From contig CP068257.2 in assembly GCA_009914755.4 (NCBI GenBank), positions 41,024,001 through 41,088,000 on the forward strand: a stretch of DNA of 64,000 bases, given 5' to 3'. The notes under the pieces were generated by a model. It had not been told where the DNA came from. It did no database searches and worked only from the letters and a program-made list of their open reading frames with translations. Shown piece after piece: positions 18,265-63,497 of the stretch. This DNA is from the human T2T-CHM13v2.0 reference genome, Homo sapiens. Made by a program: the position numbers and the translations under genes. Each line of letters begins with the position of its first letter. Positions within the stretch are counted from its first letter, which is position 1.

Positions 18265-18333
18265 ATGGGATCCGGCTCCTCCAGCTACCGGCCCAAGGCC
18301 ATCTACCTGGACATCGATGGACGCATTCAGAAG
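18265..18333 (+). CDS. Coding exon 1 of the multi-exon gene: [23 protein letters not shown]
   Basis: ATG with strong Kozak inside the CpG island. The exon ends AAG|gtagcc (GT donor at 18334). The reading frame joins exon 2 at phase 0. N-terminal MGxxxS/T is an N-myristoylation-type consensus. The 5' UTR extent is unknown. Confidence 0.75.
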
Positions 18334-19544
18334 GTAGCCCCTCCCCCACCCAGACACCCCCTCCTCCCCCCGGGTGACAGCGCCGGGGCCGGGCGCGGCG
18401 GGGCGGGACTGTCCGTGCGTCTGCCGGTCCAGGCTGCGGCCTCCGTGCGCTCCGCCAGCTCTGGTCGGGGGCGGGGGTCCCCACGCGCCGGCTCCCCGGG
18501 GAAAGGGGCGACTCGCCCTGGGGGGTGGGGGGTGGGGGGGCGGGCTAGTGTTTCCGTTTCACAGGCAGAGCTTTTCTTTTTGAAAATCTGATTAGGCTGA
18601 GTTTTTACATTCAAGGGCTGGCACATGAAGCCTTTAATTTCCGGTGGATCGGCCCGCCGGGCAGCCCCGGGGTCGTGGTCCGCGGAGGGGGCGAGCAGCC
18701 GCCGCTTCCTGTCGCGCGGGGGCAGGTGCGGGGGGCGCCGGCGGGGACACTGCTCCCCCGCAGGTGAGTAGCTCCGACTGCAGAGGGGGACTCGGGCCGC
18801 TGCACCTCCGGGGCCCCGCGGAGAGCCTGGGGGGCAGCGGGTCCGGCTCTCCCCTGCTGTGCGGAGATAGGAAGTCCCTCGAATGTCCAGCGTTCCTAGC
18901 GGACTTGAGTTACACGGGAGAGGGGTTCAGAATAGACCCCCTTTGTTCGTGGCCCCCTCTGACGGGCAGGGAGGGACAATGAGCGCGCCGGCTTGGAAGG
19001 GGCTCTCATGAGCTCCCCCTAAAGTCCCCAGGGAAAAGCCATTGTGAGGAAATCCCTCAAACCTCAGCTGGGCGTTTCAGGAAGCCCTTGCAGCTGCTTC
19101 TCACCTTTCTGCCCACGGAGTACTCCACTGAAGGAGGCCAGGGAGAGATGCCCCAGCCAGGCACAGAGCAGGTGCCGGCCAGGCTTGAGTCTTTCCTGTT
19201 CCCAGAGGTGCATTTGGCCAGTTTAATCAGTAGATTTAAGCCAACAAGCCTCCCTCACCCTGTGCCCGGCTTGATCCCCGTGAAATGGAAAGTACAGCCC
19301 TCTCCCACCGTAGCCCGCTTTGAGAGACTCAGATAACCGGGAGGAGGAAGCATCTTCAAGGACAGGTGGTCACCCCCTTATTTAATCAGTGCTGGGCAGC
19401 TGGGCAGCTGGGCAGCGGCAGACGCACAACTAGACCCAGGTCCCTGACTCCAGGACTAGGCGTCTGCAATTGCATGGGACTGTAACAGCCTCCTTTCTCC
19501 CCAAAGGAAGGAGTGGCCCTCCCTTGAATATGTCACTGCACCAG

Positions 19545-19690
19545 CATGCACACTCACACACACACACACATGCTCCAATGCTCACACATCCACTCACAAA
19601 CACACACACGCACACACGTGCATACACACACGTGCACATGAGCACACAGACATGCACACCACATAGGCACATGCACACACACTTTTTCTG
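19545..19690. repeat. CA-rich imperfect microsatellite
   Basis: 'cacactcacacacacacacacatgctc...cacacacacgcacacacgtgcatacacacacgtgcacatgagcacac'. Confidence 0.85.
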
Positions 19691-22600
19691 CCCGATAGAT
19701 GAGAATGTATCAAAGACCTGCCTTTAAAAGCAAAAGTCTTTTTAAAGTGAGTTGTCACCAGATCAACAGTAGCAGGTCCGTCCTAAGAACTTCCTAAAGA
19801 TGTCCCGGGAGCAGCTCTCTTGGAAGCAGGTGAAAAGTGGAGGAGAGCTTCAGGAGGGGTGGGAGGAGGACGCTGGGCATGGCAGGCCAGGCTGTTATTG
19901 TGGGCAGGGTAGCTTTTCACAGTGGACACGCTGAGGTTGGGGTGATCTCCAGAAAAGCAGCCTGCAGGTGGGCCCTGGGGAAGACATGGCATGTGGCACC
20001 TTTGCGGGGGAGAGGCGGATTGACTGCCAGCTCTACCACTTCCTGTACCACGAGCAAGCCCCTGGGCTCCCCAAGCTGGCATCCCCGTCCATAAAGAAGG
20101 GATAATAAAATCTGCTTTATAGACTGGAATGAGAAGGGAATGAGTGAATGTAAACACTGCCTGGAACACTGCAGAACACGATGAGCATTATTCTTCCCTC
20201 AGTTCCTTCCATAAACGTCCTTTTGTGGTGCAAACAGGGAGGCGCCAGACGGGTCTCCAACCCCCACCCCGCCCCCCATCTCCACGAGGTCTGTTGCTTG
20301 CTCCTGAGCTGCCCCCGCCCTCTGCCCCTTGCTGTGAACCCCGTTGGAAGCTCCTAGCTGGACTGTGAGTCCTGGTTGAAGCTGAATCGTTTGCCCAAGC
20401 CATGTGCCGGGCAAAGCATGATAACTTCTCGCTCACCTCCCAGGCTGCACACCCAGCAGTGCTGTCACGGATGGGTTGCACCGGGCTCAGCTGAGAGCAC
20501 TTTCAGTGCCGCTGCCATCAGCCGCCATTCCTTCTCTTAAAGTACCAGGCACTGGGTAAATCCTGGAATTTCCAGCGTGAATCTGTCTCCCTGCCATCCG
20601 CCCCATCTCCTCTCCATCAAAGGTCATGGAAACAAACCCATGTTGCTTCCTAGGAGGGAGCCCTGGGGGTCACTGGGTGCAGGAGATAAGGGATGTGTTG
20701 CTTTCCGTCACTGTGTTCGTCGGCACCACCTGGCCATGAGTCCTGGCGATGGGCACACCCGCCCCTTCGTTATCTCTGCTCTTTGTCCCTCTGGTTACCT
20801 GACCCCTGGCCATCTCAGTTTCCCCCTGAGACCGCAGAGACGGGGAGGAAGGAGGGAACATTAGAAACTGGGGGTTCTGCCGAGTTCTGTGCTCCGGCAA
20901 AGCTCCAGGTTGACAATCTGAAGTTGTCTGAGGGAGGCCCCGGGCAGCAAGTGCCGGTGTCTCCTGGCTTGGCCTTACCTGTGCAGGTAACCCTGCAGAC
21001 ATGCCCAGTGATTCAGAGGAGCCGCTGCAGCCACTTGGCGCCAGGCCAATGCTTTATTTATATGAAGAAAACTCCAGACACGCACAGGTGTCACATCACC
21101 AGAGTGACACAGTGGGAGTCAGCAACAGGAATTTGGGGGATTGTCTTCCCTCCTCAGGAGCTTTTCCTTCAGAGGTTGTGCAGAGGAAGCTGGGCGTGTG
21201 AAGTGAGTCGGAGGTTGCCTCCTGAGCCCTACACGAAGGCAGGACTCTGTGCCCTGGAGTCCAACTGAGGCTCCGTTTTCAGTGCTCCCCTCTCATCTCG
21301 AGAACCTTGGGTCAGTTACTTCACTCTGTGCCCCTGTGCTGCTGTGCTAATAATTAAATGGGATAAGGCAGATTGCCTGGTCAATGAGCCCGCCGTGTTT
21401 ATTGAGCATCTACTATGTGCTGAGTGCTGGGGTCCATGGGAAGCTGAGTGCTGGCGGAATGGGAAGGCAACTACAAATGATAAACAGCAGCAGACGTTGC
21501 AGGCTGGGTGGGCCAGCCCCGTGTGGGGCCTGATGAACAGGTTTTTTTCCCTGACGATCGGCTTTGCAGGCTTTGTGGGCTTTGTGGGGAAGGAGCCCTT
21601 TGTGCAGAACTGGTAGCCATGAGGATGGCCTGGTGAGAAGCTGCTGAAGGGCTGGGGACAGCCTCCACCCAGCCAGCAGCATCTGCACCGGCCTGTTCCC
21701 GTCATCTGTTCCTTGGCTTGCCAGGGTGCACAGATCAGGACTTGGCACTTCCCCAGCACCAGGTGAAGCCCTCCTGTCACCCCCAACCCCGTGTCTAGAC
21801 CCTCAGGTGGGCTGTTAAAGAAGGGGAGAGGTGGAAGCCAGGTCCCCAAACCTAGGGTGCTGAGGTCCTTGCTTCAGAGAGACTGTGTCCTCTAGGAGCT
21901 GAAGCGCTTCGTCTTTCCCCAGAGGATTCGTTTTTTCCTTTCCTCAGCTGCCCCTACCCTGGGGGGCCCTGGCTGCAGCACCTGCTCCTTTCTCTTGCCT
22001 ATGGAGAAAGGGTTTGCTCAGCTGAGCTGCCCATGGAGTGACAGGGACGACGCACTCAGCACTGGGGAGCTGGAGGGGGTCCCACCTGGTGGCACATCCA
22101 GGCTTGGGTTTGCCAATCTTCCGAATCGGGGAAGAGAGAGGCCTTTGGGACCCCTGGGCCAGGCTGTGGGCTCGGGTGTGGTGAGGAGCCACATCTGGGC
22201 AAGACTGAATGCTCCGGGGCCTCTGTGGTGCCACTGCCCTGACCTGGCGGCCCCCTCGGGACACTCGCACTGTGCGCGGCCTCCCTGGCGCCTCTGGGCT
22301 GTGGTGTTCTGGTCTTGGCCTTGCTCTGCAGCTGGAACCCAGGTCTGAACACATCGGTGGCCGCTTGAGTTTGCGGGGCTGTTTCTACTGTAAACCAGAG
22401 CAGTGAATGCGCACAGCCCAAAGGGAGGAGCCGCGCTAGAAAGTGTTCAAGCGTCCGCAGAAGTCGGCTCCCAGTTCTTAATAGTTTGCCACCCACCGTG
22501 GCTACGCCACACCTACGCTTGCCTCCACCCGACCTATGCCTGCCCCCTTCACATGCGGGAGCCCAGGGCTCCGTGCCCTGGGCAGCTGGTGGGGTCTGCC

Positions 22601-25413
22601 CAGGCCTTCTCGTGATGCTTCCACCCAGCCTGGTCCTGGCACCCAAGGCCAACCTCTGCGGGCCCCAGAGCTGTGCCTTTTTGGCTCAGGTCCTCCCCGC
22701 AGTGCTTGGAGTCCAGGCCTCTGCACCCTGCTGGGGTGGTCTGTGGTCCTGGCCCAAGGGAATGTCGCTCCCTGCTGCCTGGTTCTACTGATCTGTCCTG
22801 TTCAGGCCCCTCTGCCTTCATTTCTTGCTTTGGCACAAGCATGAGCTGCTGTTTCCCCCAGCTCCTCAGGGGAGAGGAGTGCACTGCCCCAACCTTGTCT
22901 GGTGTGGTTAGCATGGTGGGGCCTTAAGCCCTACCCGGCTCCTGCGTGCCTTTCCCCTCTCCTGCCCACGACATGGTCAAATGCAAACCTCCTTTCATTT
23001 TAGAAGGCATGGGCTGCTCAGCCCACACGCGCAGTGCCCTTTCCTGTGGCTGCAGGCATCTCTGCTCAATTGTGCAGGGCTGCGTCCCCCGGCCACACTG
23101 ACTCCTCTCCAGGTTTCTCGGCTCCAGCACCACTGTCTGCGCCCTCCTTCCCAGGTGGACGGCGGCTCTCCTCGCCATCCTCTCCACTTCCAGCCTATCA
23201 TCTGTCTGCCTGTTACATGTTTGTAACTTTTGACCTTTAAATTGGTATAAAAATGGTACTGTAAGTTCACTGAACCAAGAAAATCTGCTGAAGGAAGGGG
23301 GTCAGTCACACCCTTTTGGGGTTTCCAGTGTATGAATGGAGGGGGTGGCGGTGGTGGAGGGACAGGGAGCAATGAGAGTTGCCAGCCTTATTGCTGTCCT
23401 GACCCCTGGCTGGGGACGACTCCCCTGTCTCCACCTGAATTGAAGCTGGGCTGTGAAAAGTAGTAAGAACCCTCGGTTTTTGGTTCCTTTTTCAACCAGC
23501 AATCAGCCATGAAGTGCCTGACCACTTGAGAGCTACAGCAGGTGCTGTCTCGGAGAGGGCACAGGAAACTGGGCCCTTCCCAATTTTAGCCCAAGGGTGC
23601 CGAAAAGTCAGGGAGCTGCTGGCCTCCACACTCCTTCCCATTGGTGTGGTCCGAATTCCCCTTTAGCCAGACATTTCCAATGTCCAGAGGCCCAGGAGGG
23701 GACAGCTGGAAGCCAGAAGCCCACCTGACGCCATCAGGAATTTCCATGAATGACCTGGAAACCTCTCAGACTAAACCAATGCCGCCCAATCTGGGAATCC
23801 AGGAGGGCTGGTCCCATAGAGTGGTGGGGACATGGTGCTGAGACGGACAGCCTCGCCTCATCCGCCTTTCCCACTTGCCAGCCGGGAGGCCTGGGCAAAA
23901 TCACTTTCTCCCCAGGGAAGTGGAGGCTCACTGTGCAGTCCACGCGGAGCAATGGGGTGAAGTTTCCAGAGCAGGGCAGGGCATGTGGGGAGGCTCAGGA
24001 ATGCCACCCTTGCCCTCAGGCCTGGGCACAGCATAGCCCCCATGACGCTTCTCTCATCCTGGACCCATCAGCCCGGAAGACTCTGGAAGCAGCAGTGGCA
24101 GCACCTTCCTGTCACTTGTCTTGTCACTCCCCGAGTCCACTGTGAGCTAGAACCACAGGCTCCCATGAAGAAGGAGCCAGAACCACAGGCCCCATGAGCC
24201 CAGGTCCCACAGCCCGCACCTTCGTCTTCCAGCCAGCCTCTCCGGAGCTCAGTGTGGGTGGAGGGGCTGTCTGGCCTCAGAAATGGGCAAAAGACAGCTC
24301 TCGTTGTCAGCGAGGTAAATCTAGCGCAGAGGAAGGGCACACTGTCCCCGTCAGACGCCTCAGATGAACTGACATGCAAATGAGAGATGAAACGGGGACG
24401 AGCCGGGCAGCTGATCTCAGTGCAGCAACTGGGACACCTCGGGGCATAAGCCGGGCAGGGAGGCGGCAGGAACTGGGCCCCAGGGGGCCAAGACTTCCTG
24501 AGAGGCTGGGCCCGGTAGCCCAGTCCTGGGCTTGCTTCCCAGGGGGTGGTGGGCAACCCTGAACCCTCTCTCACCCAATCACCTGCTCCCCTGGGTGCAG
24601 GTGACCCAGCAAGCCGCACTCCTGGGAAATTTCAGAAGGTTTTGGGCAAGAAGGGCCCAGAGAGCCCCCAGAGACCAGACAGCACAGCCCGATAGCTGGG
24701 CCTGCCCCAGACAAAGCGTGTCTGCACTCCTTGGCTTTCTCCCCAGACAAACCCACCCTGAGCTCAGGATCCCTCCAGCTTCCAGGAGCAGGTGCGGGGC
24801 CTGCAGGGACGGCTCGCAGAGAAGGCAGTTTGCGAGTCAGTGCCTGGCTTGTGGAGGTTGAGACCAAGGCCAGTTGGGTGCTTGCATTTCCAGGGGTCCA
24901 AATATTTTTGAGAAGAAAATGTTCTAAGAAAGTGCACAGGGTGGTGGATGAAAGACCACGCTCTGGGTACCGTGTACACCGCTCGGGTGACAGTGCACCA
25001 GAATCTCAGAAATCACCACTAAAGAACTTACCCATGTAACCAAACACCACCCCTTCCCCAAACACTATTGGAATTAAAAAAAAAAAAAAAGATTAAAATG
25101 GTTAAAAATAGAAAGTGCACAAGCAAGGGTCCATCTGCAGGAGTTGGAGGAGCGCATGCCTGTATTCCTGGCACTGCGGGCACAGTCATGCCATGGGCAC
25201 CAGGGACGCCCAGTGCACTCAGCCACCCAGGGGTGGCTCCCAACATTTTCAAGCTCAAAAAGAAATATTTTCACTTGAGGGTGCAACTTATTTGTCTTGA
25301 ACCCATCCCTGACTGCCTGTCTCCCCCCTCACCCTGACCACATCTCCCCAAATCCCGAAGCTGGTCACGCAACGGGAGCATTGGCCCTGAACAGAAACCC
25401 GCAGTACCCCTGA

Positions 25414-25767
<354 letters not shown>

Positions 25768-26879
25768 CACGCCCAGCCTTTTTTTTTTTTTTAATTTTAA
25801 ATTGTGGTAAAATATATGAACAATAAACCCTCCCTCCCCATCCCCCTCCCCCAGCCCCTGACCCCCACTGTACATTCCGCTTTCTATCTCCATGAAACTG
25901 CTGAGTGCGGGGACCTCACAGAAGTGGAATCACACAGGATCGCCCTGCTGTGCCTGGCCTCCTTCACTCGGATCATGCCCTCAGGTGCATCCATGTTGTA
26001 GCACGTGTCCGAATTTCCTGCCTTTTTAAGGCCGAGCGGTATTCCATTGTGTGCGTGGACCACATTTTGTGTTTCCATTCAAAACGGATGAATCGATGAA
26101 ACTGCCTGATATTTTTAAAGCCTCAGTCATTTTCATTCTTAGTTCTTCAGTTTGCAAAGGGCCGGCCTGTTGTGATGGGTTTATTGTTGCATCTTCTGAA
26201 AAACTTTGTGAGTTCCCGAAGGCCTCTCCACGTCTTGAGTCATGGCTGTGCTGCTTTGCGAAGCTGTGTGCATGTCTGTGGTGTAGCCTGTGTACAGCCT
26301 GTGATGCGTCGCAGCGGAAGGGTAGGGGGCTGCCCAGGGAAGACAGATGCGCCAGGTTCCGCTCCACGGAGCTCAGCTACCAGCCCTGGTGGAGAGCGCA
26401 GATGGGGCCGATTTGTCATTTGTCTGCGCTTGAGCCCAGCAGCTGTGTGGCCTCCCTGGGGCAAGTCATTCACCCTCTCTGTGCCTCAGTGTCTCTGTGA
26501 AGTGGGGGGAAGTTTTTGGAAGATTAAGTGGGCTAATACGCGTCAAATGCTAGAACACACTGGCACTTGGTAAATGCTATATAAGTGTTATCATTTTTGT
26601 TTGTTTATTATTTATTTATCCATGTCATGGATTTAAGGCAGTCTAATCTCAGTGCCTGGTGGAGACCCGGGCGCCACCCCCCCAGGTTGTCAAGTGGTCC
26701 CTGTGCCTCCCACTATCGTCCCCAGCACGGTGCCGTGTCCGGGCGTGCGTGAAGGGCCAGCTCACCTCACAGCTCTGCTTCCCAGGTTAGCTCCCATCCA
26801 CCCTCCCCCTACCTGTTTCCTCACCGAAGGAAGGGGCAGAAAGATGCCCTCCATGCCCCTTCCGACTGTTGCAGAGGGA

Positions 26880-27800
26880 TGGAGGACTATGGTACATACA
26901 CACATATACACGCACACACCCACCACACACACACACCATGCACATGCACATCACACACACGCACACACCATGCACACACACCACACACGTACACACCATG
27001 CACATCACACACAAGCACACCACACACACCAAGCACACGCACATCATACACATGCACACACACCACACACACCACACACCACACACACGCACATCCCACA
27101 CCATGCACACACACACCACGCACACGCACTGCACACACATGCACACACCATGCACACGCACATCACACACTTGTACACACCAGGCACATCACACACAAGA
27201 ACGCACACCACACACAAGGACACACACCACACACACACACCAAGCACACACACACCACACACACGCACACACACGCACACACCCACCACACACCACACAC
27301 ATGCACATCACACACGTACACACCACACACAGCACACACAAAAACACACCACACACACCATGCACATGCACATCACACACATGCACACCACGCACACGCA
27401 CATCACATGCACACGCCACGCGCCTCACACACAAGAACACACACCACACACACGCACACCACACACACGCACATATCACACACATGCACATCACATACAT
27501 GCACACACCACACTTACACACATGCACATCACACACAAGAATGCACACCACATACACGCACATCACACACATGCACACACCACACATGCACATCACACAC
27601 CTGCATATACATCACACACACATCACACACATCCACATGCACCACACCCACCACACACATGCACGCACCTACCACACATGCATATCACACACATGCACAC
27701 ACACCACACACAAGCACATCACAAACACCACACAGGCACATCACACACATACATACACACCGCGCACACATCACACACATGCACACACACCACACACGCA
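26880..27800. repeat. About 0.9-kb imperfect CA-rich (CACACAYR / CACCA) simple-repeat tract
   Basis: Continuous 'cacacaccatgcacatgcacatcacacacacgcacacacc...'. It is the source of the 400- and 448-aa His/Thr ORFs (26652..27854, 26869..28215) and the Cys/Val ORFs on the minus strand. Confidence 0.95.
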
Positions 27801-30567
27801 CAGTATGAAGATGACAGAGAAGTCAGCAGAGCCCCTGGGGGTTTCAGGAGTTGAGTGGGGACGAGGCAGGTGGCCACACAGCTCGGAGGGAGGGCAGAAG
27901 GCACCCGTCTTCGCAGAGTCACAGTGGGGCTTGCCTCCTATACGTGCCGGAAGGGTGAAGCCCCTTATCTCATTGCCCGATGTGATGAGGTTTGAAGTGG
28001 TTGAGCTTGGAGGGTATGGGCTGAGCCCACAGCAGACAGGCCTGGCAGTGCCCCCCGTCTTCCCACCCTGCGGTCATGCAGCCCGACTCTTGGGGGCGGG
28101 GTGCCACCGTGATGTGCCGTCACTTGCAGCAGTATGTCCTCATGCCAGGCTGAGACCAGCACTGTGTGACCAGCCTGCCCCATGTCCCTCAGCGCTGTGT
28201 CACACTCCACACTGAGGCCCCACTGAAGCATGCCAGGCCCCATCCTATTTCTTCCAGGTAGTCGTCTGCCCAGCACCTCCCCTCCCAGGCCTTGCCCTAA
28301 AGCCCAGGCCTCTCAGCATCCAGGACTCTGGAATCTCCCAGGTGTTGATGGCTGAGGTCATCAGCTGGATGCCAGGACACCCAGGATGCTCCAGGTCCTT
28401 GCTGGGGTCTGGAGTTTGTGATTCAGCCTCAGTCCCTGTGGTGAGTCCACCATGTGTCCTCAGACAATGGATCAGAGAGCCCCCAGAGGACGGCCCGGGG
28501 CCGAGTCGGGTCCAGATGCCAAAGGGGCTTCTCGAGGCATCTCCAGCTCCCACCTGCCCCTCGGAGTGCCAGGCTTGGCTTCTGGAAGAGAAAGCTGGGG
28601 GTTTAGTGACTCCAGCCAACTGCTGTGAGCCCAAGGCATCAAACTAAAAATAGCGAGGCCAAGAGGGAGTCTTTGTGTTCGGCTCAGTGGGCAATGGTGC
28701 CTCACCTCGCAGCATGACACAGGGCTGATGACACGGGGCACGTTGGTCACAAAGTGCCAGTCTCAGCCTGGCACAGGGACGTGCCACCTGCAGGTGATGA
28801 CACATCACAGTGGCAGCCGCTCCTGATGGTGCTGCTGCATTGAGTAGGAGCCCAGATCCAGGGAGACAGTTGCAGCAGATGAGGCAGGAGGCCAGCGAGG
28901 GGTTCTACCTGCTTTCCGGGCTGGCCTCTGCATGGACACAAAGCAGAAAGGGCATAAAGGTGACCCTGGCCACCAAAGCAGACCTGGAGCAAACTGGACC
29001 AGCGCAAGGCCCCGGTGCCAGCACTCAGAGACATTTCTTTTCTGGCAGGAAATTTGTGCTTCATTTTCTAATGAAATTCCAAGGCAATCAAAAGGCAAGG
29101 AAAGAGGAGGGAAAGGAAGGGAGGGAGGGAGGGGGTTCCATTCCCATCCGAATGGAAGCCCCCAAGGCTTCTGTAGCTCCCCCCATCACCAACTTCACTC
29201 ACCACTCTTATCTGATGCCTCCTATTTGGGTACACACGGCCGGGTCGGCCTTGCGAGAGACTCAGTTTCCTCTCGACTTCCGCCCGCCTGCACTGTCACC
29301 ACGTCCTGCCATTGACCTCTGTTCATCCACTCATGGTCACTGCTGTGAGTTGAATTGTGTCTCCCAAAAAAGTGGATTTCTGTGCTAACCTGTGAATGTC
29401 CCGTTAGTTGGAAATAGGGTATTTGCAGACATAATCACATCAAGATGAGGTCATACTGCATTGGGATGGGCCTCAAGCCCATATGCCCGCCATCCTTCTA
29501 AGGAGAGGGAAAGGCAGACACACATTTGTCCATGGAAATGAGAACGGAAGACGTAGAGACAGAATCAGGCCATGTAAAGACAGACTCAGAGACCAGAGTG
29601 ATGCATGTACAAGCCAGGCTCTGCGGGCAGCCCCTAGAAGCTGGAAGAGGCAAGCCTCCTCCCTGGAGTCCTGGGAAGGAGCCAGCCCCGCCCATGCCTC
29701 GAGCTCAGGCTTCAGGCCTCCGGAGCCAAGAGAGATAAACCTCTGTGGTTTCATGTCACCCAGTTTGTGGTCTTTGTTATAGCAGCCCCAGGACACTCAG
29801 GGGGTTGCCTTGTCCACCCCCATCCTGGCCCTCTGAGGGACTGGTTGGCTCTTAGAAGACCGTTCAACCTGCCCTCTGGTCCTCCTCCCCCACCCAGAGA
29901 CCCCTGGCTACACCCTGCCCAAGGGAGCTCACCAAAGCCCACAGGGTCCCTGTGATCTTGTCACCTGGGCTCCCACAGGCCAGCAGTGTTGGAACCTGGA
30001 CATCTGGCTCCAGCCTTGGTGGCCACCCCCGACCTTGCTCTGCTCCTACAGCTCCCGGCCTTCCCTGCCCTGGCCGGCCCTTGCTGAATGTCCCCGCTCC
30101 TAGGAAGCCGGATGTGTCGCGTGCAGGTGCCTCTCTGCACTGTAATAACTCCTCACCAGGCACCCTTGGAGCCCAGGATCAAGTCACTCACCTTCCAACC
30201 CTGCCCCTGCCCAGAGACTGGCACGAGAACCAGTAACAGTTGTTGAATAATGAACAATGGATGCATGCAGCTCACCCGTGAGAGGGCGTTGCTCGGCTGG
30301 GCCAGGGATGAAGCTTCTCCCGCGTGGCTCCACCGTCTATCCCTCAAGCTCCTGATGCTCCCCTGGGCACCTCTGCGCCATGAGGCCCCGTTGAAGTCAG
30401 TTGGGGAGGCAGTGTGGACCGTGAGAAGGGAGTCCTAAGCACAGGAAACGCTGCCTTCCTGGGGCCCTAAAGAACAGGCTCACCTTCCCCAAGGGCCTTC
30501 AGGCCCTGACATCTAAAAAGATGTTCTTTATCAAAGGGGAAAGCAGCCCTGGGGTGGGGGCGTGGCC

Positions 30568-50641: not shown

Positions 50642-50712
50642 GTAATCTTCAGCAAGTACTGCAACTCCAGCGACATCATGGACCTGTTCTGCATCGCCAC
50701 CGGCCTGCCTCG
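50642..50712 (+). CDS. Coding exon 2: [23 protein letters not shown](R)
   Basis: Acceptor 'cttctgttttgcag|GTAATC' and donor 'CCTCG|gtgagtgc'. 71 nt, enters phase 0 and leaves phase 2. The frame is continuous with exon 1 and no in-frame stop occurs. Confidence 0.8.
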
Positions 50713-50966: not shown

Positions 50967-51314
<348 letters not shown>

Positions 51315-52366: not shown

Positions 52367-52444
52367 GAACACGACCATCTCCCTGCTGACCACCGACGAC
52401 GCCATGGTCTCCATCGACCCCACCATGCCCGCGAATTCAGAACG
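52367..52444 (+). CDS. Coding exon 3: (R)[25 protein letters not shown](R)
   Basis: Acceptor 'ggtgtgttttccag|GAACACG' and donor 'GAACG|gtaagagg'. 78 nt, phase 2 in and phase 2 out. The carried-over CG plus G gives Arg, so frame continuity with exon 2 is exact. Confidence 0.8.
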
Positions 52445-53309: not shown

Positions 53310-53700
53310 GTCAGGCAGACCCTTGTGTCAGTGAGGTCCCAGTGGGCGTGGCCAGCACCGTCCCCCTCAGTGAGGCCCCCCAGTGGACGTGGCCAGTGCT
53401 GCCTCCCTCAGTGAGGTCTCAGTGGACATGGCCAGAGCCGTCCCCCTCAGTGAGCGCTCAGTAGACATGGCCAGTGCCGTCCTCAGCGAGGTCCCCGTGG
53501 GTGTGGCCAGCGCCATCCCCCTCAGCGAGGTCCTCGTGGGTGTGGCCAGCACCATCCCACTCAGCGAGGTCCCAGTGGACATGGCCAGCGCCGCCCCCCT
53601 CAGTGAGGCTTCAGTGGGCATGGCCAGTGCCGTCCCCCTCAGCGAGGTCCCAGTGGACGTGTCCAGAGCTGTCCTGGTCAGCCGTCCTCCCTGTCACCTT
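53310..53700. repeat. 39-bp minisatellite, about 10 copies
   Basis: Unit 'cctcagtgaggtcccagtggacatggccagtgccgtccc' with variants; period measured at 39, 39, 39 and 38 bp. It stays open in several frames on both strands (ORFs 53383..53760 +, 53474..53800 +, 53367..53621 -) because 39 = 13 codons. Confidence 0.9.
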
Positions 53701-54289
53701 GAGGCCTCAGCCGAGCTCCTCTCATCTGGCTGTGCCCGTCAGTCTCCCCTCCTGCCCTAGCCAGGATGCCCGTCTCCTGCCCCACACAGTCTGGCTCTGA
53801 CTCTTGGCTTCCAGACTCCCCGGAAGGTGCAGTGCTAATTGGCTCCCCAGAGACTCCAGTAAGCATCTTGTCAGCCTCAGCACCAGCTCCAGCCTGGGGG
53901 GTCTCGCTCAGAAGCAAAGTCACTGAGTGACCTGTCCTCCTGACACCCACAAGACTAAAATGATCTCTCAGAGGGGACCTCACAGAAACCAGCACCTTGT
54001 CCATGCCAGCTGGGTATCTGAGAGAAACTGCTTTGTTTTCCTGAAGTCATTTGAAACAGCGTGCAGAGACATTTAAACTCGGCGGGAAATAGGAGAAGCC
54101 CACCTTGACCCTTCTAATTCTCTGGCCCCAGGTGCCTTATTAACAAGAGACAGTATCAGACACACCAGACAAAAGCCCTCCTGAGCCCAAAGAGCCCAAA
54201 TGTCTGGAAGCTCTCTGCTGAGATGCCAAAATGCATGCCTTTCTGATAAAGAGACAGAGACAGATGAGGTACCATGATATGGACATGGC

Positions 54290-54790
54290 AGTGGACGTGG
54301 ACAGGGGAGCAGTGGAGATGGAGAAGATGGAGACACACGCAGTTGAGGATACAGGCGAAGAAGATGGAGACACACGCGGATGAGGATACAGGCGAAGAAG
54401 ATGGAGACACACGCGGATGAGGATACAGGTGAAGAAGATGGAGACACACGCGGATGAGGATACAGGTGAAGAAGGTGGAGACAGACGCGGATGAGGATAC
54501 AGATGGAGAAGATGGAGGTAGACGCGGGTGAGGATACAGGTGGAGAAGATGGAGGTAGACGCGGGTGAGGATACAGGTGGAGAAGATGGAGGTAGACGCG
54601 GGTGAGGATACAGGTGGAGAAGATGGAGGTAGACGCGGATGAGGATACAGGTGGAGAAGATGGAGGTAGACGCGGATGAGGATACAGGTGGAGAAGATGG
54701 AGGTAGACGCGGATGAGGATACAGGTGGAGAAGATGGGGTTAGACGCGGATGAGGACACAGGTGGAGAAGAGGAAGTTAGACGCGGATGA
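54290..54790. repeat. 37-bp minisatellite, about 13 copies
   Basis: Unit 'gacgcgggtgaggatacaggtggagaagatggaggta'; period measured at 37 bp from recurrences of 'gacgcgggtg' at 54521, 54558 and 54595. Produces the 228-aa ORF 54073..54759 (-). Confidence 0.9.
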
Positions 54791-55394
54791 GGATATAGAT
54801 AGATGCATAGGGTGTGGATCTAACCGGGTACGGGTGATGTGGAAACGGATCTAGACAGCGATGTGGAAACGGATCTAGACAGCGATGTGGATGTGATCTA
54901 GATAATGTGGCTCTGGACGTAGAAAGAGCTTCAGATGCTCTATCTATGATCGTGGGTGTGGATATAGGCATAGACATGGTGAAGAGGAGAGAATAGACTC
55001 TCCTCTCTCATGACAAACTGATCGTGGCTGGGGGCGGCACGTGCTGAGATGTGGCTGTATTTGTCCCCCAGGCTGGTGCCTGCGCCTCCTGCACCCCCGT
55101 CTCCTTTGTGCCTTCTTCCATTCCCTCTGCCACTGTTAGGTCCAGGCCTCACTGAGCTCTGACCTCCCTGCCTCCAGCCTGCCTCTCCCACACGGCTGCC
55201 AGGTTCAACCTGGTAAGACACCTTCTTCTCCATGGTGGCCTCCCAATCTGGGCCCTGCCAACTTATGCCTCACCAACTTCTCCAACTTACCCCTGTACCC
55301 ACGCCCGCACCATGCCCAGCCCACAGGATCCTGCCTTCCCAGCTCTGCAGAACCAGCTTCTGCTTATCCGCTAGGTGCCAGCCCAGCCACCTGC

Positions 55395-56480
55395 CTTAAG
55401 CACCATCCGCAGTCACCCAGCCCATCACCATCACTAGCAAAGTCACCCAGACCCATCACCATCACCATCCAGAGTCACCCAGCCCTTCACTATCACCATC
55501 CAAAGTCACCAGCCCCATCACCATCACCATCCAGAGTCACCAGCCCCATCACCATCACCATTCAAAGTCACCCACCCCGATACCATCACCATCCAAAGTC
55601 ACCCAGACCTATCACCATCATCATCCAGAGTCACCAGCCCCTTCACCATCACCATCCAAAGTCACCAGCCCCTTTACCATCACCATCCAGAGTCACCCAG
55701 TCCCATCGCCATCACCATCCAGATTCACCCAGACCCATCACCATCTCCATCTAAAGTCACCCAGACCCATCACCATCACTATCCAAAGTCACGCATCCTG
55801 TCACTATCACCATCCAAAGTCACCAAGCCCCTTCACCATCACCATCCAAAGTCACCCAGTCCTATCACCATCACCATCCTAAGTTACCAGCCTTTCACCA
55901 TCACCATCAAAGTCACCAGCCCCATCATCGTCACCATCCTATCCAAAGTCATCCAGTACCACCACCATCCAAAATCACCCAGACACATCACCATCACCAT
56001 CCAAAGCCACCTAGCCCATCACCATCACTATCCAAAGTCATCTAGCACCATCACCATCCAAAGTCACCCAGACACATCACCATCACCATCCAAAGTTACC
56101 AGCCCCATCACCATCATCATCCAGAGTCACCCAGATCCATCACCATCACCATCCAAAGTCACTCAGCCCATCACCATCACTATCCAAAGTCACCAGCCTC
56201 TTCACCATCACTATCACCAGGCCCTTCACCATCATCCGAAGTCACCCAGACCCATGACCATCACCATCCAAAGTCTTCCAGACCCATCATCATCACCATT
56301 TGAGGTCACCCAGACCCATCACCATCACCATCCAAAGTCACCCAGCCCATCACCATCACTATCCAAAGTGACCAGCCCCTTTACCATCACTATCCAAAGT
56401 CACCCAGACCCATCACCATCACCACCCAAAGTCACCCAGCCCCTTCACCATCTCCATCCAAAGTCACCCAACCTGTCACC
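55395..56480. repeat. About 31-bp minisatellite, about 35 copies (about 1.1 kb)
   Basis: Unit 'catcaccatcaccatccaaagtcacccagcc' and variants (period 30-32 bp). Produces the His/Pro/Ser-rich ORF 56254..56532. Confidence 0.9.
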
Positions 56481-57712
56481 ATCAGCACATCACTGGCTTC
56501 CTCCCCTCAGTGTGCGCCTCAGTCTGAAGTGATCTCACTTACTTGTTTGAGGTTCTCACTGCTGCTGGCCCCGCTGGACGGTCTTCTCTCATAGGAAGGA
56601 AATTTCACCTTGCTCTCTGCTGGATTTCCAGCCCCTAAACGAGGCGGGGCATGCTGGGTGCAGGATGGAATGAGTTGGGGACGGAGTGAACCAGTCCAGC
56701 TCGTGCGTGCCTCCCCCTCTGCACTGCCCAGAGCAGTTTTTTTTTCTGGGGACGCAGGGCAACGTCTGGAGACATTTCTGGATGTCACCAGGGGTAAGGG
56801 CCTGCTACTTGTATCTGATGGGTGGAGACCCGGGATGCCGATGGCATCCTACAGCGCACAGGACAGGCCCACAACAATGACACACGTGGCCGGAGACATC
56901 AGCGGTGCTGAGGCGGAGCACCTGGTGACTGAGGTCTCCCCTGTGCTCTGTCGCTGTCCTCTCACCCTCCCCCAATCTTCCAACCTAGTAGTTCTCAGAC
57001 AACTGCGTCAGAATCCGCAGGGGGCTTGGTGGAGCACAGAGCTCCCCTCAGTCTCTGGTTTGTGACGGAGGTGGGCCCCGAGAATCTTTCTGCAGCAGAA
57101 AGCCAGGCTTTCTGCAGGTTCCCAGTGAGGAGGACGAGGCTGGCCCGGGACACGCCACTGATGCTCTTCTGACCCAGGGGCTTTTCTCTCCCGCTTCCGT
57201 CCCTCTTCCCTCGCCGGCAGGTGACGTTACTGGCCTTTTCTTTTTTGGCCCTGCCTCCCCCTTGGCTTCTCCCCTCTTCCTCTCCTCCACTCGGTGCCTG
57301 GTGACATGCGGCCATCCTCAGAGATGTGCTTCGGGGCCCGCACGCCTTGCTCCTCGCACTCTTCCTGCACCGGAGCCGCGGTGCGAGGCCTCGGGAATGC
57401 TCACCGTTTCTCTCCCGCCCCCCGGCCGCATGCTGCAGCCATTCCCTCACCACATGTCCAGGAGGGAGCCGGCATCCTTTGCTGACTCTCTTGCTGTGAC
57501 TATGGTGCTGCGTGGAAAAGGGGCCGTGGGAAGGCTGGGCAGGTGGCTGCTCAGAGCCCCACCTGACACGGTGACCCACGGGGCCTGGAAATTCACTGCC
57601 CCGATTTCCACACAGGTGCCTGAGCTCCTGCAGAGAATGCCTGAGAGCGAGACGCATGCCCGTCAATTTGTGCTTTCAGGCGTCCTAAGCACACACGCCT
57701 GCTCTTATTTGA

Positions 57713-58071
<359 letters not shown>

Positions 58072-58073
58072 TA

Positions 58074-58376
<303 letters not shown>

Positions 58377-58675
58377 CCACCCAGGAATCTTTTAAAAGGT
58401 ACCAGTTGATGCCCAGACCCCTCAATTAAGTCCAGATTTTTAAGAGATTTTTTTTTTTTAAAGCTCTGCAAGTGATTCCAGCACACAGTCTGGGGACTAA
58501 CCGCTGATATAAGGTCTGGAAAATCTAAGAAACCACTCTACCCCACCCTCTGGTGACCAGAAGCTTATGTCTACCAGACCCAGGGCCTTCCCTTGCTGAA
58601 ACATGCTGGGTAAACTCTTTGTTTCTTCCTAGCAGACAGCAGCCCTCTCCCTCTAGCTCAGAAGCTACGTCAGCA

Positions 58676-58722
58676 GTTGGTTGGTTGGTTGGTTGGTGGG
58701 TTGGTTGGGTTGTGTCTCTCTT
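58676..58722. repeat. (GGTT)n / (GGTTG)n simple repeat
   Basis: 'ggttggttggttggttggtgggttggttgggttgtg'. Confidence 0.85.
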
Positions 58723-61700
58723 TAACTTCCTCCACTTCTGAAGTCACCTGCAGTGACTTGGTGTGGACTTGGTCACCTCACTGTCCCCCCAGCCTCAGGC
58801 CCAGGAACCATGTCTTTGGAGGAGGCTCTCCTGCTGGCAGCTGGTTGCATCTGGCATGCTTGGATTCCTGCAGGTGGCTGGTTGCACCTAGCTTGCTTGG
58901 ATTCTTCCCAGATTCACAGCCATAGGGTGGGCGTTTCATGAAATCTCCAAATTCCAAGGGCTCTTGACAGACCACCTCCATCCTGATCAGAAGGGGTGAT
59001 GCCGGTTGCACGGTCTCTTAGAGCTTAAAACTCTAGCTTCTTCTCTGCTCCTCATTCCAAACTAAACAAATTGTTGCATTGGATTATTCTTTCAAAATAC
59101 TCCTTGCCTTAATGCCATCCTTTAGATTTTGGTGGCTGGCTCCTGGTGTGGACCGCATCTCACAGGTGGACTTCCTGGTTTCTGCCTCCTGTTACCCCTC
59201 ACAGTTATCTCTCCCTTGAGTCCTGCTACCTTCCAGAAAAATAGGCTCCAAACACACTTTCATCCCATCACTCCCAGCATGGAGTTCTCCAGTGGCCTGT
59301 TGGCTACAGGACACTCTCCAGCCCCCCGCATTGGGATGTCTGGCCCCAATCCACCATAATGTACTTGTCTCCAATCTGCTGAGCTGCATGAATGCCCACC
59401 CCAGCCCAGCGGGCACTCCCCTTCTGCAAACCTCCAAGCACATTCCCCCTCTGCACACTGCCAATCTTCCTGTCCCCGCCCCAAATCCAAAGGCCCCTCC
59501 TATGGCTGGGGATCCACTGGCAGCTGCCTAACCCTTCCTATGCTCCTGGACGTTTGGTGCAATCTGGAGCACGCTCAAGCCGGCATTTGAAATAACCTGG
59601 AACACGTTTACATCATGGAAAATATGGAAAATAGGCTGATTGGCTTCCACTCCCTTTTAGAGCTGGCAAGAAAAATAATTGATGACTAAACAACCTAACG
59701 ACCAACAAATATAAAAAGTCATAGCCCAACCATGATCAAATAAGGCTCCAGCATTCCTCCTTGGAGGGACTCTGAGCCATCTGGTGTCATTTTCCTTTCC
59801 AATCCGGGAACATTCTGGAGATCCTGACATCCAGCTAACATGGGCGTTGCTTCCTGACAACCCTACCCCTTCCATTCCCCAGTCACTACTGCTTCAAGAT
59901 GCAGTGGAAGGAGATAAATCAGACACCTCAGTAGCGTGAGTGAAAGTGGGGTGTGTGGTGAGACACATACAGAGGGGAGAGGGCCAGAGGACGGCGCCGT
60001 GCGACACACACCATTGCTCCTTTTGTTCCCGGTTTCGGCCAAGTTGTGCCGCAGGTGACTCTCCACCGGCTGAGCTCTGTGCATGCAGGGCCAGTATTCT
60101 CGGCCATTCTGGCTTAGAGAAAAGCTTTCTATATTCCAGAATGGCTCCAGGCCTCCTCCTCCTCCTATTAAATGTGTTTTAAAAGAGGTCTTAGAGCCCA
60201 GGCAGTTAGATCTTAGAAAAAGACAAATACAGTAGAAGCTGGAGGCAAGCTTATCCTTTCCAAAGAGGGAGTGCTTCCTGTGTTAATTTGTTATTGAGCA
60301 TGATGAAGATTCAGCTCCATTGAGACTGAGCCAAGAGTTGACTCATTCATGGGAGCAACATAACGGGTTGTGAGAAGCCAAAGGATTAAGCATCTGGGAG
60401 CCAAGACTGATCTTGAGTGGCCCAGAAATGCAACCCAAGGATCTTGGGCCCAAGGGCCAGGAAGGTTTCTGCAGCCTCCTGGAGCATTCACAGAGGCTCC
60501 CTGTCCGTCCACTTTTCCCTCTGTTGCTGATGTGATGGCTCCTGCCCTCAGCTTACCAGACTCCTCGGAGAGGCTGGCCTCTGAATTGGTTGAATGGGCT
60601 TGAAGGGGGCTGGACTCCATTTGGGTGGATGAGCAGGCCCAGTGCCCCTGTATGAGGGGAAGTTGTCTTGGTAAGCCTGTTTTTGTGTCAGGTCCCCAGG
60701 ACACCTTCCTCTGAGTCTCTTGCGTGGGAGAAGTTGCTGGACACGCCTCTCTGGCTCTGTCCCCGCCGGCACTGTGTGGGATCCATGCTGTTCTCCCTCC
60801 AGCCCTTGCCCCACCTCCTGGAGCCCTTCTCTGCGCCTGGTCACTACCCGCCCCCCACCTCCAGCATTAATTTTCTAGGGACAAGGGGCAGGGGAAGGAG
60901 GAGAAGAAAGAGTCCTTGCTGCTCCTCAGAGAAGACACAGGAGAAGAAAGTCGGAGAGGAGTGGGGAGCCAGGGTGGCAAAGCCCCTTCCTGCTGCCCAC
61001 GCAGGTCCTGGCTTTCTCTCCACCCACTGCACCATTTCCAGGGCTGCTCTCATGGTGGGAGCCGGAGAGACACTGAGAAGAGGAAGGAAGGAGGATCCAA
61101 GAGGAGCCCAGCACACCCGGCTTCTCTGCTGCCCACCCTCCACTCTGTCCTCCCAGCCCAGGCCCTTCCTAGGCAACCCTGGCACGGGTCCTCACTGGCC
61201 ACACTGAGGCCATCAGCAAAGCACCTGGCCTCTTCACGCCTTGGGCTCTGGGTCTGTAAGGCAGTGAGGCTGAGGTTCCTGGGACAGCTGGGCACTGTGG
61301 ACTTGCCCAGCTGAGCACAGGCATCAGGGGCTAGAGGGGCCCTAGTCCCGATGACGACCGAGTGCCCTCTCCACCTGGGGAGCTTGGAGGACTTTGCTCT
61401 GCACTTAGGGCCACGCTTCAAGCCCAGTGCCTCTTATGACCAAGTCTCTGGGGAGAAATGAGCCCTCCAGTGCCAAATGACCCACCACTAAAAGGCCTTT
61501 TGAGGCAGGGCCTCTCCTGAGCCCACGCAGGCACGTGGTGGGAGATGAGAGGGTGTGGGCTCACTTCTTGACATTCTGTGTGAGTGAGGTCATTCATAGG
61601 GTGAGGGGAGAATCAAGGGGACAGAGGGCCCTCTAGTCCCCAGCACTTGGGCTCAGCTGGCAAGTCCACAGTGCCCGGCTCTCCCGAGAACCTCAGCCTC

Positions 61701-62744
61701 ACCGCCCTACAGACAAAGGGCCCAAAGTGCAGGGAGGTCAGTGCCACACAGGTTTTATTTTTTCACATTATTGGTGTTTAAAATTGTAAAGATTTTCCAC
61801 GTTACCTGTAACCATCAAACCACATGTATTGCCCCCAGTTAATCACCATGAACAGCTTGGTGTGTATACCCCTCCATATTCACTGTGTTTCTTCTTCCAG
61901 GAATGAGCTCATTCTCTATACATCACTCCGTAACTTGTTGTTTTTACCTAGTAAGGAGTCATGGGCGTCCCACCAGGTGAATACTTGCATGTTTGTCTTC
62001 ATCTTCTTAACAACTACCTGACACTGCAGTGTCTCAGTCTGTCTGAACTTAAACAGCTAGACATTGAGTTCTCAGAGTCTGGAGGCTGAAATCCAAGATG
62101 AGGGTGTGGGCAGGTTCTGTTCCTGGGGAGGCCTCTCTTCCTGGCTTGCATACAGCTGCCTTCTGGCTGTGCCCTCATGAGGCAGAGCAAGAGACAGCTC
62201 TGGTGTCTTTGGCCCTTGTAAGGACACCAACCCCATCCCATGGGCCCCACCCTCAGGAACTCCTCCAAACCCAATCACCTCCCAAGGCCCTACCTCCTAA
62301 TCTTACCCACTGGGGATGAGGGCTTCATTATATGAATTTGGGGTGGGGGTGCCTCAACATTCAGACCCCAGCCCCATGGGACCACTAATGTGGCATCCTG
62401 CCTGTGGAGAGATGCACAGACTGACCCATCCAGACAGCACAGTGGAGCACGCTCTTTCAACCCACCTGCACCTGACCACAGTGGGCACTCAGGAAGAAAT
62501 GGGTAGAGCGAGTGAATGAATGAATGAGCAAGTCAAAGACATGAACACATGACATCTGACTGTCTCCCTGTGTGCTTGTGTTTCATTCTGATACATCCCT
62601 CCCTAAATTCATCTGCTGAGACAAAGGATTTTAACTGGTGTTTCTACACTGCTTTCCCCAAGATGTGGCAACCCACACCCCACCAGCAACACCTGTGACG
62701 TCTGCCGCCCTGTGTCCTTGTAGCACCTCTCTTACCAGGTTTCC

Positions 62745-62890
62745 AAATGTTGCTAAACTGCTGGGTCAAGGAATAGCATCTGCCTGGGGTTAGCCTCACT
62801 TGTGTGGATTTTTTCTTACTCCTCTTGGCCACTGACTGCTCCTGGTCTATGCCTGTTCCATTGGCTGCACTGTCCTTCCCTGCCTCTTGG
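62745..62890 (+). repeat. Copy A of an about 135-bp direct duplication (see 63730-63870)
   Basis: 'ggaatagcatctgcctggggttagcctcacttgtgtggattttttcttactcctcttggccactgactgctcctggtctatgcctgttccattggctgcactgtccttccctgcctcttggccagaggctgtc'. Confidence 0.85.
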
Positions 62891-63453
62891 CCAGAGGCTG
62901 TCGTGTGTCAGCGACAGAAACGTTTTGGCTGTCGTCTGCACAGCCAGTATTCTCTCCCCATCACGCTGGGCCTCGTGATGATGGGGGGGTGGGGGTTGAC
63001 ATCACAGAGATCCCAGTGCATTTTCGACTTCATCACTGTCACCATCCTCTCTTGTTCATTTGGGGGATACAGCCGCCATCAGCTCAACAGAGCAAAAGAG
63101 AGGGAGGCCACCTGCATCCACCAGGTGCTGAAATGGGTCCAGGCAGCTGCCAGAGTCTGACATTTCCAACTTGATACAGCACCTGTGATCGGCAGTAGTA
63201 CCCATGACAACATTTATTTAATTGACCAAACACGAACATTATAGAGGAAGGTGATCATTTAAATGATATACTTGAAATTCATCTGAGTAAGGAAGCTGAG
63301 AACAGTCAAAGAAGCTAATTTAAAAAATAAAAAAAAATAAAAAGAACCACCTAATCCGCTGATTTCTAATCATGCCGAGTGCTTATCTCTCCTGCCAGGC
63401 ATACAGCGAGCGCCTTGCAGAGTCTCACAGCGGCACTGTCTTCTCTTTTGCAG

Positions 63454-63497
63454 CACTCCGTACAAAGTGAGACCTGTGGCCATCAAGCAACTCTCCG
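63454..63497 (+). CDS. Coding exon 4: (R)TPYKVRPVAIKQLS(..)
   Basis: Acceptor 'gtcttctcttttgcag|CACTCCG' and donor 'CTCTCCG|gtaaggcc'. 44 nt, phase 2 in and phase 1 out. The frame continues from exon 3, and the gene runs past the window end. Confidence 0.75.

What the first reader, a model, noticed from the sequence alone, without database searches (positions are those of the whole stretch)
18265..63497. Four-exon plus-strand gene with an N-myristoylation-type start and a predicted beta-grasp/ubiquitin-like N-terminal domain; identity unresolved
Exons at 18265-18333, 50642-50712, 52367-52444 and 63454-63497 all have canonical GT/AG boundaries and good polypyrimidine tracts. The phases are exactly compatible (0, then 0/2, then 2/2, then 2/1), and the joined frame has no stop. 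A four-for-four fit like this is very unlikely by chance. The inferred N-terminus is [87 protein letters not shown]. Gly2 followed by Ser/Thr at position 6 is the classic N-myristoylation consensus, which suggests a membrane-anchored protein. The pattern '[14 protein letters not shown]...[15 protein letters not shown]...TISLL' looks like a beta-strand, then a helix, then a beta-strand, as in ubiquitin-fold modules (RBD, PB1, CIDE-N); CIDE-N domains share an 'xIATGL' helix end. I cannot confidently match it to a named human gene from memory. Introns are very long (32.3, 1.65 and 11.0 kb) and the gene continues beyond the window.
Basis: partly seen in the sequence, partly recalled or inferred. 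Interest (0 to 1): 0.6.

Follow-up and report, generated by a model that had tools for sequence, protein, structure and literature searches.

The report
First four exons of PDE9A
The four exons are real and are the start of the well-known human cGMP phosphodiesterase gene PDE9A, so the finding is ordinary, although structure prediction indicates they encode an ancient ubiquitin-shaped N-terminal module that I did not find described in the papers I could search.

Summary
The four plus-strand segments have AG/GT boundaries and compatible phases.

The peptide matches residues 1-87 of the human PDE9A sequence deposited with PDB entries 3qi3 and 4qge at 87 of 87 positions (E = 5.7e-53). Orthologue fragments from mouse, birds and reptiles break at the same exon boundaries. 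The window also reproduces published details: a second, frame-shifted ATG 52 nt downstream, and the Kozak contexts of both ATGs.

The MGSGSSS myristoylation motif was described in 2006 (PMC1647287).

The Met-Gly start and the module are conserved from humans to molluscs, crustaceans and a tardigrade.

The gene is already known and interest is low. The ubiquitin-like module is a modest side point.

The parts
17501..19000 (.). CpG island around the PDE9A promoter, 5'UTR and exon 1
   Evidence: GC 0.64-0.78 and CpG o/e 0.72-0.89. The transcription start site was not determined here.
18265..18333 (+). Coding part of PDE9A exon 1 (69 nt, codons 1-23): Met-Gly myristoylation signal, β1 and most of β2 of the predicted ubiquitin-like module
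   Evidence: First ATG at 18265 has G at -3 and G at +4.
18317..18319 (+). Second start codon in exon 1, 52 nt after the first and in a shifted frame. It has a weak Kozak context (T at -3) and is used by variants that skip exon 2.
   Evidence: Position and context match PMC1647287. ATG2 joined to exons 3 and 4 reads [13 protein letters not shown]... in the PDE9A frame.
18334..50641 (+). Intron 1 (32,308 nt)
   Evidence: GT at 18334, AG at 50640-50641. Holds Alus and long impure CA repeats.
50642..50712 (+). PDE9A exon 2 (71 nt; codons 24-46 plus 2 nt): end of β2 and helix α1 (residues 32-43)
   Evidence: Its length is not a multiple of 3, so skipping it shifts the frame.
50713..52366 (+). Intron 2 (1,654 nt)
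52367..52444 (+). PDE9A exon 3 (78 nt, in-frame cassette): β3, β4 and the conserved loop [10 protein letters not shown] (L53, P65 and N70 invariant; M67 in at least 90%)
   Evidence: The mouse protein A0A494BAR7 (P0006) lacks exactly this exon.
52445..63453 (+). Intron 3 (11,009 nt)
   Evidence: Holds several minisatellites.
63454..63497 (+). PDE9A exon 4 (44 nt; rest of codon 73 to codon 87 plus 1 nt): β5 (residues 76-80) and the start of the linker
   Evidence: The gene continues beyond the window; no further PDE9A exon was found in 63498-64000.

Best explanation
The finding is the 5' end of PDE9A, the gene for the high-affinity cGMP-specific 3',5'-cyclic phosphodiesterase 9A. The source is most likely human. 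The window holds the CpG-island promoter region, the coding part of exon 1, and exons 2, 3 and 4. The rest of the gene lies beyond the window, including the optional exon 5, the coiled-coil region and the catalytic domain.

The four exons encode residues 1-87. These comprise a Met-Gly-x-x-x-Ser N-myristoylation signal and then, at about residues 11-80, a compact module predicted to have the ubiquitin-like β-grasp fold.

Shown here: the identity, the exon structure, the conservation and the predicted fold.

Taken from the literature: at least 20 human splice variants reshuffle the 5' exons. Variants that lose exon 2 must start at the second ATG in exon 1 to stay in frame with the catalytic domain. 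The long forms PDE9A1 and PDE9A2 sit at membrane ruffles, Golgi and vesicles, whereas PDE9A3 and PDE9A17 are cytosolic.

Inferred: the myristoyl-Gly plus ubiquitin-like module is a targeting and protein-interaction unit that places the phosphodiesterase in particular cGMP microdomains. Each of the four exons carries an essential piece of the fold. Alternative splicing of exons 2-4 together with the switch of start codon would therefore remove the module, and with it the acyl anchor.
For: Identity:
- 87/87 identity to residues 1-87 of PDE9A in the sequences deposited with PDB 3qi3 and 4qge (E = 5.7e-53).
- Every named homologue is PDE9A.
- Full-length homologues with this N-terminus carry Pfam PDEase_I.

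Gene structure:
- Canonical splice sites and compatible phases.
- Orthologue fragments from mouse, grouse, turtle and Komodo dragon break at the same exon boundaries.
- The mouse isoform P0006 skips exactly exon 3.
- The second ATG lies 52 nt downstream with a pyrimidine at -3, as published.
- ATG2 plus exon-2 skipping restores the frame.

Species:
- At least 11 Alu heads.
- A 108-aa read-through fragment, found on 32 public contigs, is 100% identical across exon 1 and 255 nt of intron 1.

Myristoylation signal:
- M1 and G2 are invariant in the trimmed alignment.
- 20 of 22 homologues start with MG, and position 6 is Ser/Thr in 19 of those 20.
- Homologues include shark, molluscs, a tardigrade and crustaceans.

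Fold:
- AF2 pLDDT 85.1, pTM 0.71; all five models score 81-85.
- Foldseek returns the same fold class.

Isoform localisation: PMC1647287.
Against: - The catalytic part of the gene is outside the window. Identification as the functional PDE9A locus rests on the N-terminal 87 residues and the gene structure.
- Protein identity cannot separate human from close primates. The Otolemur fragment is also 100% identical over the 87 residues.
- Foldseek E-values are only about 0.01.
- No sequence profile links the module to a ubiquitin-like family.
- I found no direct evidence of myristate attachment.
- In PMC1647287 the fragment 1-304, which keeps the motif and the module, was cytosolic, and N-terminally tagged constructs gave 'very similar results'. 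The acyl anchor is therefore not sufficient and may not be required for the observed localisation.
Confidence: 0.96

Rival explanations
1. The exons are PDE9A, but the N-terminal 87 residues are a flexible leader rather than a folded ubiquitin-like module, and the AlphaFold2 result is an over-confident artefact.
Confidence: 0.12
2. The Met-Gly start is conserved but is not used as a myristoylation site that drives membrane binding. Localisation of the long isoforms comes instead from protein-protein contacts of the module plus the C-terminal half.
For: Fragment 1-304 is cytosolic. N- and C-terminally tagged proteins localise similarly. Only the complete protein reaches the membrane. No paper in the library demonstrates PDE9A myristoylation.
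Against: Gly2 and Ser/Thr6 are kept across bilaterians, which is hard to explain without selection on the NMT signal. Isoforms that start at ATG2 lack the motif and are cytosolic. Established knowledge: a single myristate usually needs a second signal, so a cytosolic fragment does not exclude acylation.
Confidence: 0.3
3. The window is not the functional PDE9A locus but a duplicated copy or pseudogene, or the orthologous locus of a non-human primate.
For: Only 87 residues are available. The galago (Otolemur) fragment is equally identical at the protein level. No nucleotide database of eukaryotic genomes could be searched.
Against: Introns are present, all splice sites and the reading frame are intact, and exon 1 has a CpG island, so this is not a processed pseudogene. 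Intron read-through fragments found on many public contigs are 98.8-100% identical to the window (P0018, P0010), whereas the Otolemur read-through drops to 73.5% outside the exon.
Confidence: 0.05

Closest known systems
Human PDE9A (high-affinity cGMP-specific 3',5'-cyclic phosphodiesterase 9A; isoforms PDE9A1 and PDE9A2), gene on 21q22.3
   Same: Residues 1-87 are identical. The exon 1 details match: the first ATG in a good Kozak context, the second ATG 52 nt downstream in a shifted frame, and the MGSGSSS motif. The 5' exons behave as alternatively spliced cassettes, as described for the 20 or more variants.
   Different: Nothing differs in the part that can be compared. The window stops after exon 4, so the catalytic domain and exon 5 are not present.
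Ubiquitin-like domain (ULD) of TBK1 and the IKK kinases
   Different: Only 13-14% sequence identity, and no profile-level link. The module is N-terminal and follows an acylation signal, whereas in TBK1 it follows the kinase domain. Any shared function, such as intramolecular regulation or partner docking, is inference only.
CIDE-N, PB1 and Ras-binding domains
   Different: These score clearly lower than the TBK1 ULD and many UBLs. No match reaches any Pfam threshold. The 'xIATGL' resemblance to CIDE-N was not supported by any sequence search.
N-myristoylated signalling proteins (Src-family kinases, Gα subunits, NEURL1)
   Same: Met-Gly-x-x-x-Ser/Thr start, conserved in orthologues. The isoforms that carry it are found at membranes.
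   Different: Attachment of myristate to PDE9A was not shown in any paper I could search. No obvious second signal (a polybasic patch or a nearby palmitoylatable Cys) is apparent by eye in residues 1-10; this was not analysed further.

Membership tests
PDE9A gene / PDE9 family | Protein sequence identity to PDE9A | tested here: met
   87/87 identity, E = 5.7e-53, to PDB sequences 3qi3_A and 4qge_A, named PDE9A / isoform PDE9A2. All named homologues are PDE9A.
PDE9A gene / PDE9 family | Published 5' gene structure: two ATGs in exon 1 spaced 52 nt apart in different frames, with strong and weak Kozak contexts; 5' exons that are alternatively spliced | tested here: met
   ATGs at 18265 and 18317, with G and T at -3 respectively. 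Skipping exon 2 is rescued by ATG2. The mouse isoform without exon 3 maps accordingly.
PDE9A gene / PDE9 family | C-terminal class I phosphodiesterase catalytic domain (Pfam PF00233) encoded downstream | not testable with these tools
   It lies beyond base 64000. Indirect support: full-length homologues with this N-terminus (P0020, P0025, P0028, P0038, P0040) all carry PDEase_I.
PDE9A gene / PDE9 family | Chromosomal position 21q22.3 (human) | not testable with these tools
   No eukaryotic genome nucleotide database is available. Alu content shows a primate origin.
N-myristoylated proteins (NMT substrates) | Gly at position 2 after the initiator Met, with a small or uncharged residue at position 3 and Ser/Thr favoured at position 6 | tested here: met
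   MGSGSS in the window. MG in 20 of 22 homologues. Position 6 is S or T in 19 of 20, and position 3 is S, N, A or T.
N-myristoylated proteins (NMT substrates) | Demonstrated covalent myristate on Gly2 | not testable with these tools
   An experiment is needed. The literature search found the motif and localisation data only.
Ubiquitin-like β-grasp fold (structural superfold) | β-β-α-β-β-β order of elements, with a mixed sheet grasping one helix | tested here: met
   AF2 model mb1416addd865: E11-17, E20-26, H32-43, E51-54, bridge 60-61, E76-80; pLDDT 85.1. This is a prediction, not an experimental structure.
Ubiquitin-like β-grasp fold (structural superfold) | Significant structural similarity to solved ubiquitin-fold domains | tested here: met
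Ubiquitin family / UBL sequence families (Pfam PF00240 and relatives) | Match to the family profile above its threshold | tested here: not met
   The window peptide matches no Pfam family at E <= 10. Among 16 homologues, ubiquitin appears once at E = 0.13. A profile search against PDB sequences finds only PDE9A, with the TBCB and COBLL1 UBLs at E of about 1.2-1.3.
Ubiquitin-like modifiers (conjugatable) | Exposed C-terminal Gly-Gly for conjugation | tested here: not met
   There is no GG after β5. The chain runs on into the linker and the rest of PDE9A. It is an integral domain, not a modifier.
CIDE-N domain (PF02017) | Profile match, and best structural neighbours being CIDE-N domains | tested here: not met
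PB1 domain (PF00564) | Profile match above threshold; OPCA acidic motif or conserved basic cluster | tested here: inconclusive

The most novel reading that the evidence does not exclude
PDE9 is usually described as lacking a recognised N-terminal regulatory domain. On this reading it carries a bilaterian-wide, myristoyl-tagged ubiquitin-like domain whose closest solved relative is the TBK1/IKK ULD. This domain would be the missing targeting or regulatory module of the enzyme, and human 5' alternative splicing plus start-codon switching would exist to switch it on and off.
Probability: 0.3. Interest if true: 0.4.

Novelty: already known. Interest (0 to 1): 0.15.

Why it matters
As a gene finding it adds nothing new. 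PDE9A, its 5' exons, its two start codons and its myristoylation motif have been published since 1998-2006.

The small gain is structural. PDE9A is a drug target in heart failure, cognition and obesity, and reviews say its N-terminal region has no known regulatory function. Here that region is predicted with confidence to be a ubiquitin-fold domain, conserved together with its Met-Gly start from humans to molluscs and arthropods. Each of exons 1-4 encodes part of the fold.

This gives a concrete, testable reason why isoforms lacking these exons lose cortical localisation. It also suggests looking for binding partners of the module rather than only for catalytic-site inhibitors.

Tried and rejected
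1. Tandem copies of the module in other proteins. The exhaustive HMMER search listed long proteins with 3-9 matched stretches (P0029, P0033, P0044, P0063). They turned out to be cadherin-like β-sandwich repeats, mucin WxxW repeats and short 'SIGIDP' repeats. Their scores are summed weak matches to 'VSIDPTMP' and '[11 protein letters not shown]'. I rejected them as false positives.

2. The 5'UTR hairpin mentioned in PMC1647287. Folding 18150-18333 as RNA gives -74.5 kcal/mol, but z = -0.39 against shuffles, so it is no more stable than expected for such GC-rich sequence. This neither supports nor excludes a regulatory hairpin.

3. The first AF2 run with 6 near-identical sequences was too weak to judge the fold. 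It was superseded by the 22-sequence run.

4. The afdb50 fold library was unavailable, so I could not compare the model with the public AlphaFold model of PDE9A or look for the module in other proteins by structure.

5. Other genes within the finding's span. Rfam found only an Alu-derived SRP fragment. ORFs of at least 180 aa are all repeat-derived or GC-rich noise. tblastn with the retrieved fragments found no further PDE9A exon in the window.

6. Sequence-profile links to the UBL, PB1 or CIDE-N families: nothing significant.
Full report
**1. The observation**

I read the four proposed exons with their flanks and joined them by script. All coordinates are right.
- 18265-18333: 69 nt, ATG in the context GCAGGATGG, donor AAG|GTAGCC.
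- 50642-50712: 71 nt, acceptor TTCTGTTTTGCAG|, donor TCG|GTGAGT.
- 52367-52444: 78 nt, acceptor GTGTTTTCCAG|, donor ACG|GTAAGA.
- 63454-63497: 44 nt, acceptor CTTCTCTTTTGCAG|, donor CCG|GTAAGG.

Exon 1 lies in a CpG island (17501-19000), and GC3 of the coding sequence is 0.84.

The window contains 23,458 AG..GT segments of 40-200 nt with at least one open frame. Canonical boundaries and compatible phases alone would not be strong evidence. The protein-level evidence below is what settles it.

**2. Identity**

The peptide matches residues 1-87 of the sequence deposited with PDB entries 3qi3 and 4qge at 87 of 87 positions. That sequence is named 'High affinity cGMP-specific 3',5'-cyclic phosphodiesterase 9A / isoform PDE9A2' (E = 5.7e-53).

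A search of 5.8 billion proteins returned only PDE9A-named sequences among the named hits: galago, mouse, grouse, turtle and Komodo dragon. Mapped back on the window, these fragments break at the same exon boundaries. The mouse entry A0A494BAR7 (P0006) lacks exactly exon 3, which is independent evidence for that junction pair.

Full-length homologues carrying this N-terminus have the Pfam PDEase_I catalytic domain.

The window also reproduces specific published details of human PDE9A exon 1 (Rentero & Puigdomenech 2006, PMC1647287). There is a second ATG 52 nt downstream in a shifted frame (18317). The first ATG has a purine at -3 and the second a pyrimidine.

Joining ATG2 to exon 3 restores the PDE9A frame ([13 protein letters not shown]...), whereas ATG1 with exon 2 skipped runs out of frame. 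This is the logic the paper gives for variants such as PDE9A3 and PDE9A17.

The source is primate, with at least 11 Alu heads, and most likely human. Intron read-through fragments seen on many public contigs are 98.8-100% identical to the window. The galago read-through falls to 73.5% outside the exon. No eukaryotic nucleotide database was available to prove the locus.

**3. The myristoylation motif**

The MGSGSSS pattern was noted in 2006 as an N-myristoylation motif of PDE9A1 and PDE9A2. What I can add is conservation.

The exhaustive HMMER search and the cluster look-up show homologues of the N-terminal region in shark, the molluscs Elysia and Dreissena, the tardigrade Ramazzottius, and the crustaceans Macrobrachium and Homarus. 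Of 22 aligned homologues, 20 begin with Met-Gly, and position 6 is Ser or Thr in 19 of those 20. M1 and G2 are invariant in the trimmed alignment.

Against a simple membrane-anchor reading, the same paper reports three things:
- Fragment 1-304 is cytosolic.
- N- and C-terminally tagged proteins behave similarly.
- Only the complete long isoforms reach membrane ruffles.

I found no paper demonstrating myristate on PDE9A.

**4. The fold**

With 22 sequences, including the invertebrate homologues (alignment A2), the model became confident. Mean pLDDT is 85.1 and pTM 0.71, all five models score 81-85, and residues 11-80 are mostly above 90. The elements are β1 11-17, β2 20-26, α1 32-43, β3 51-54, a bridge at 60-61 and β5 76-80.

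Foldseek returns the same class (TBK1 ULD, FERM F1 lobes, SUMO) at modest E-values of about 0.01.

A profile of the module finds only PDE9A among PDB sequences. Pfam scans of 16 homologues give only sub-threshold hints (PB1 E = 0.04, ubiquitin E = 0.13).

The closest relative is the TBK1/IKK type rather than CIDE-N. Membership of any sequence family is not shown.

**5. How it most likely works**

Shown: exons 1-4 each encode part of the module.
- Exon 1: the acylation signal, β1 and most of β2.
- Exon 2: the end of β2 and the helix.
- Exon 3: β3, β4 and the conserved loop [10 protein letters not shown].
- Exon 4: β5.

Exons 2 and 4 (71 and 44 nt) are not multiples of three. Exon 3 (78 nt) is an in-frame cassette.

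From the literature: human PDE9A has at least 20 variants that differ in these 5' exons. Both ATGs are used. The long forms are cortical, Golgi or vesicular, and the ATG2 forms are cytosolic.

Inferred: the myristoyl-Gly plus ubiquitin-like domain is a localisation and partner-binding unit. It needs the rest of the protein, probably the dimer, to hold PDE9A at membranes. Splicing out any of exons 2-4 destroys the fold, and the switch to ATG2 removes the acyl signal as well. The result would be a soluble enzyme that controls a different cGMP pool. The analogy to the TBK1 ULD, a built-in β-grasp next to a helical dimerisation scaffold, is a lead and not a test.

**6. Comparison with what is known, and novelty**

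The gene, its exon structure, its start codons and the motif are all published, so the finding as stated is already known.

In the searchable library, the only paper containing both 'PDE9A' and 'ubiquitin-like domain' is an unrelated transcriptomics study. [quoted passage not shown]

The ubiquitin-like assignment therefore appears not to be in that literature. It should, however, be visible to anyone who opens the public AlphaFold model, which I could not check because afdb50 was unavailable. I rate this as a modest annotation gain.

**7. Surroundings**

Nothing else of note lies within the span.
- The single Rfam hit (Metazoa_SRP, 50100-50216 minus strand, 70.6 bits against a cut-off of 70) is an Alu fragment.
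- Long ORFs are artefacts of CA repeats or GC-rich sequence.
- A second CpG-island-like stretch embraces exon 2 (49551-51000). I did not follow it up.

**Verdict**

Novelty: already known. Interest: 0.15.

Noticed in passing
window 49551-51000: A second CpG-island-like stretch, in two blocks (49551-49950 and 50501-51000; GC about 0.61, CpG o/e 0.83-0.87), surrounds PDE9A exon 2, 32 kb downstream of the main promoter island. It could mark an internal promoter or regulatory element.
   Followed up: no
window 17900-18010: A purine-rich G tract (GGGAGGGGGGAGGGGGGAGGGG...) lies immediately upstream of the GC-rich exon 1 region, with C-rich mirror tracts at 18165-18205. It has potential to form G-quadruplex or triplex structures in the promoter or 5'UTR.
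   Followed up: no
window 50100-50216 (-): An Rfam Metazoa_SRP match reaches just above the gathering score (70.6 against 70 bits) but spans only 117 nt of sequence. It ends right beside an Alu head mapped at about 50217, so it is an Alu fragment and not an SRP RNA gene.
   Followed up: yes
window 53328-56484 (intron 3) and 14425-14674: A cluster of minisatellites: a 37-mer x 12.9 copies at 54319-54795 (95% matches), a 31-mer x 35 copies at 55401-56484, a 39-mer x 9 copies at 53328-53674, and upstream of the gene a 25-mer x 10 copies at 14425-14674.
   Followed up: no
window 26894-27802 and 34486-35274 (intron 1): Long impure CA/ACAC repeats, about 0.8-0.9 kb each, create spurious His/Thr-rich ORFs of up to 448 aa on the plus strand. 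These are not genes.
   Followed up: partly
proteins P0029, P0033, P0044, P0063 (not in the window): Repeat proteins (cadherin-like β-sandwich x 9, mucin WxxW x 11, 'SIGIDP' repeats) reach phmmer E-values from about 5e-4 down to 5e-17 against the 87-aa query. The scores come from summing many weak matches. This shows how single-sequence searches with short queries pick up repeat-driven false positives.
   Followed up: yes
window 18150-18333: The 5'UTR/exon 1 hairpin proposed in the literature folds at -74.5 kcal/mol, but this is no more stable than dinucleotide shuffles (z = -0.39).
   Followed up: partly
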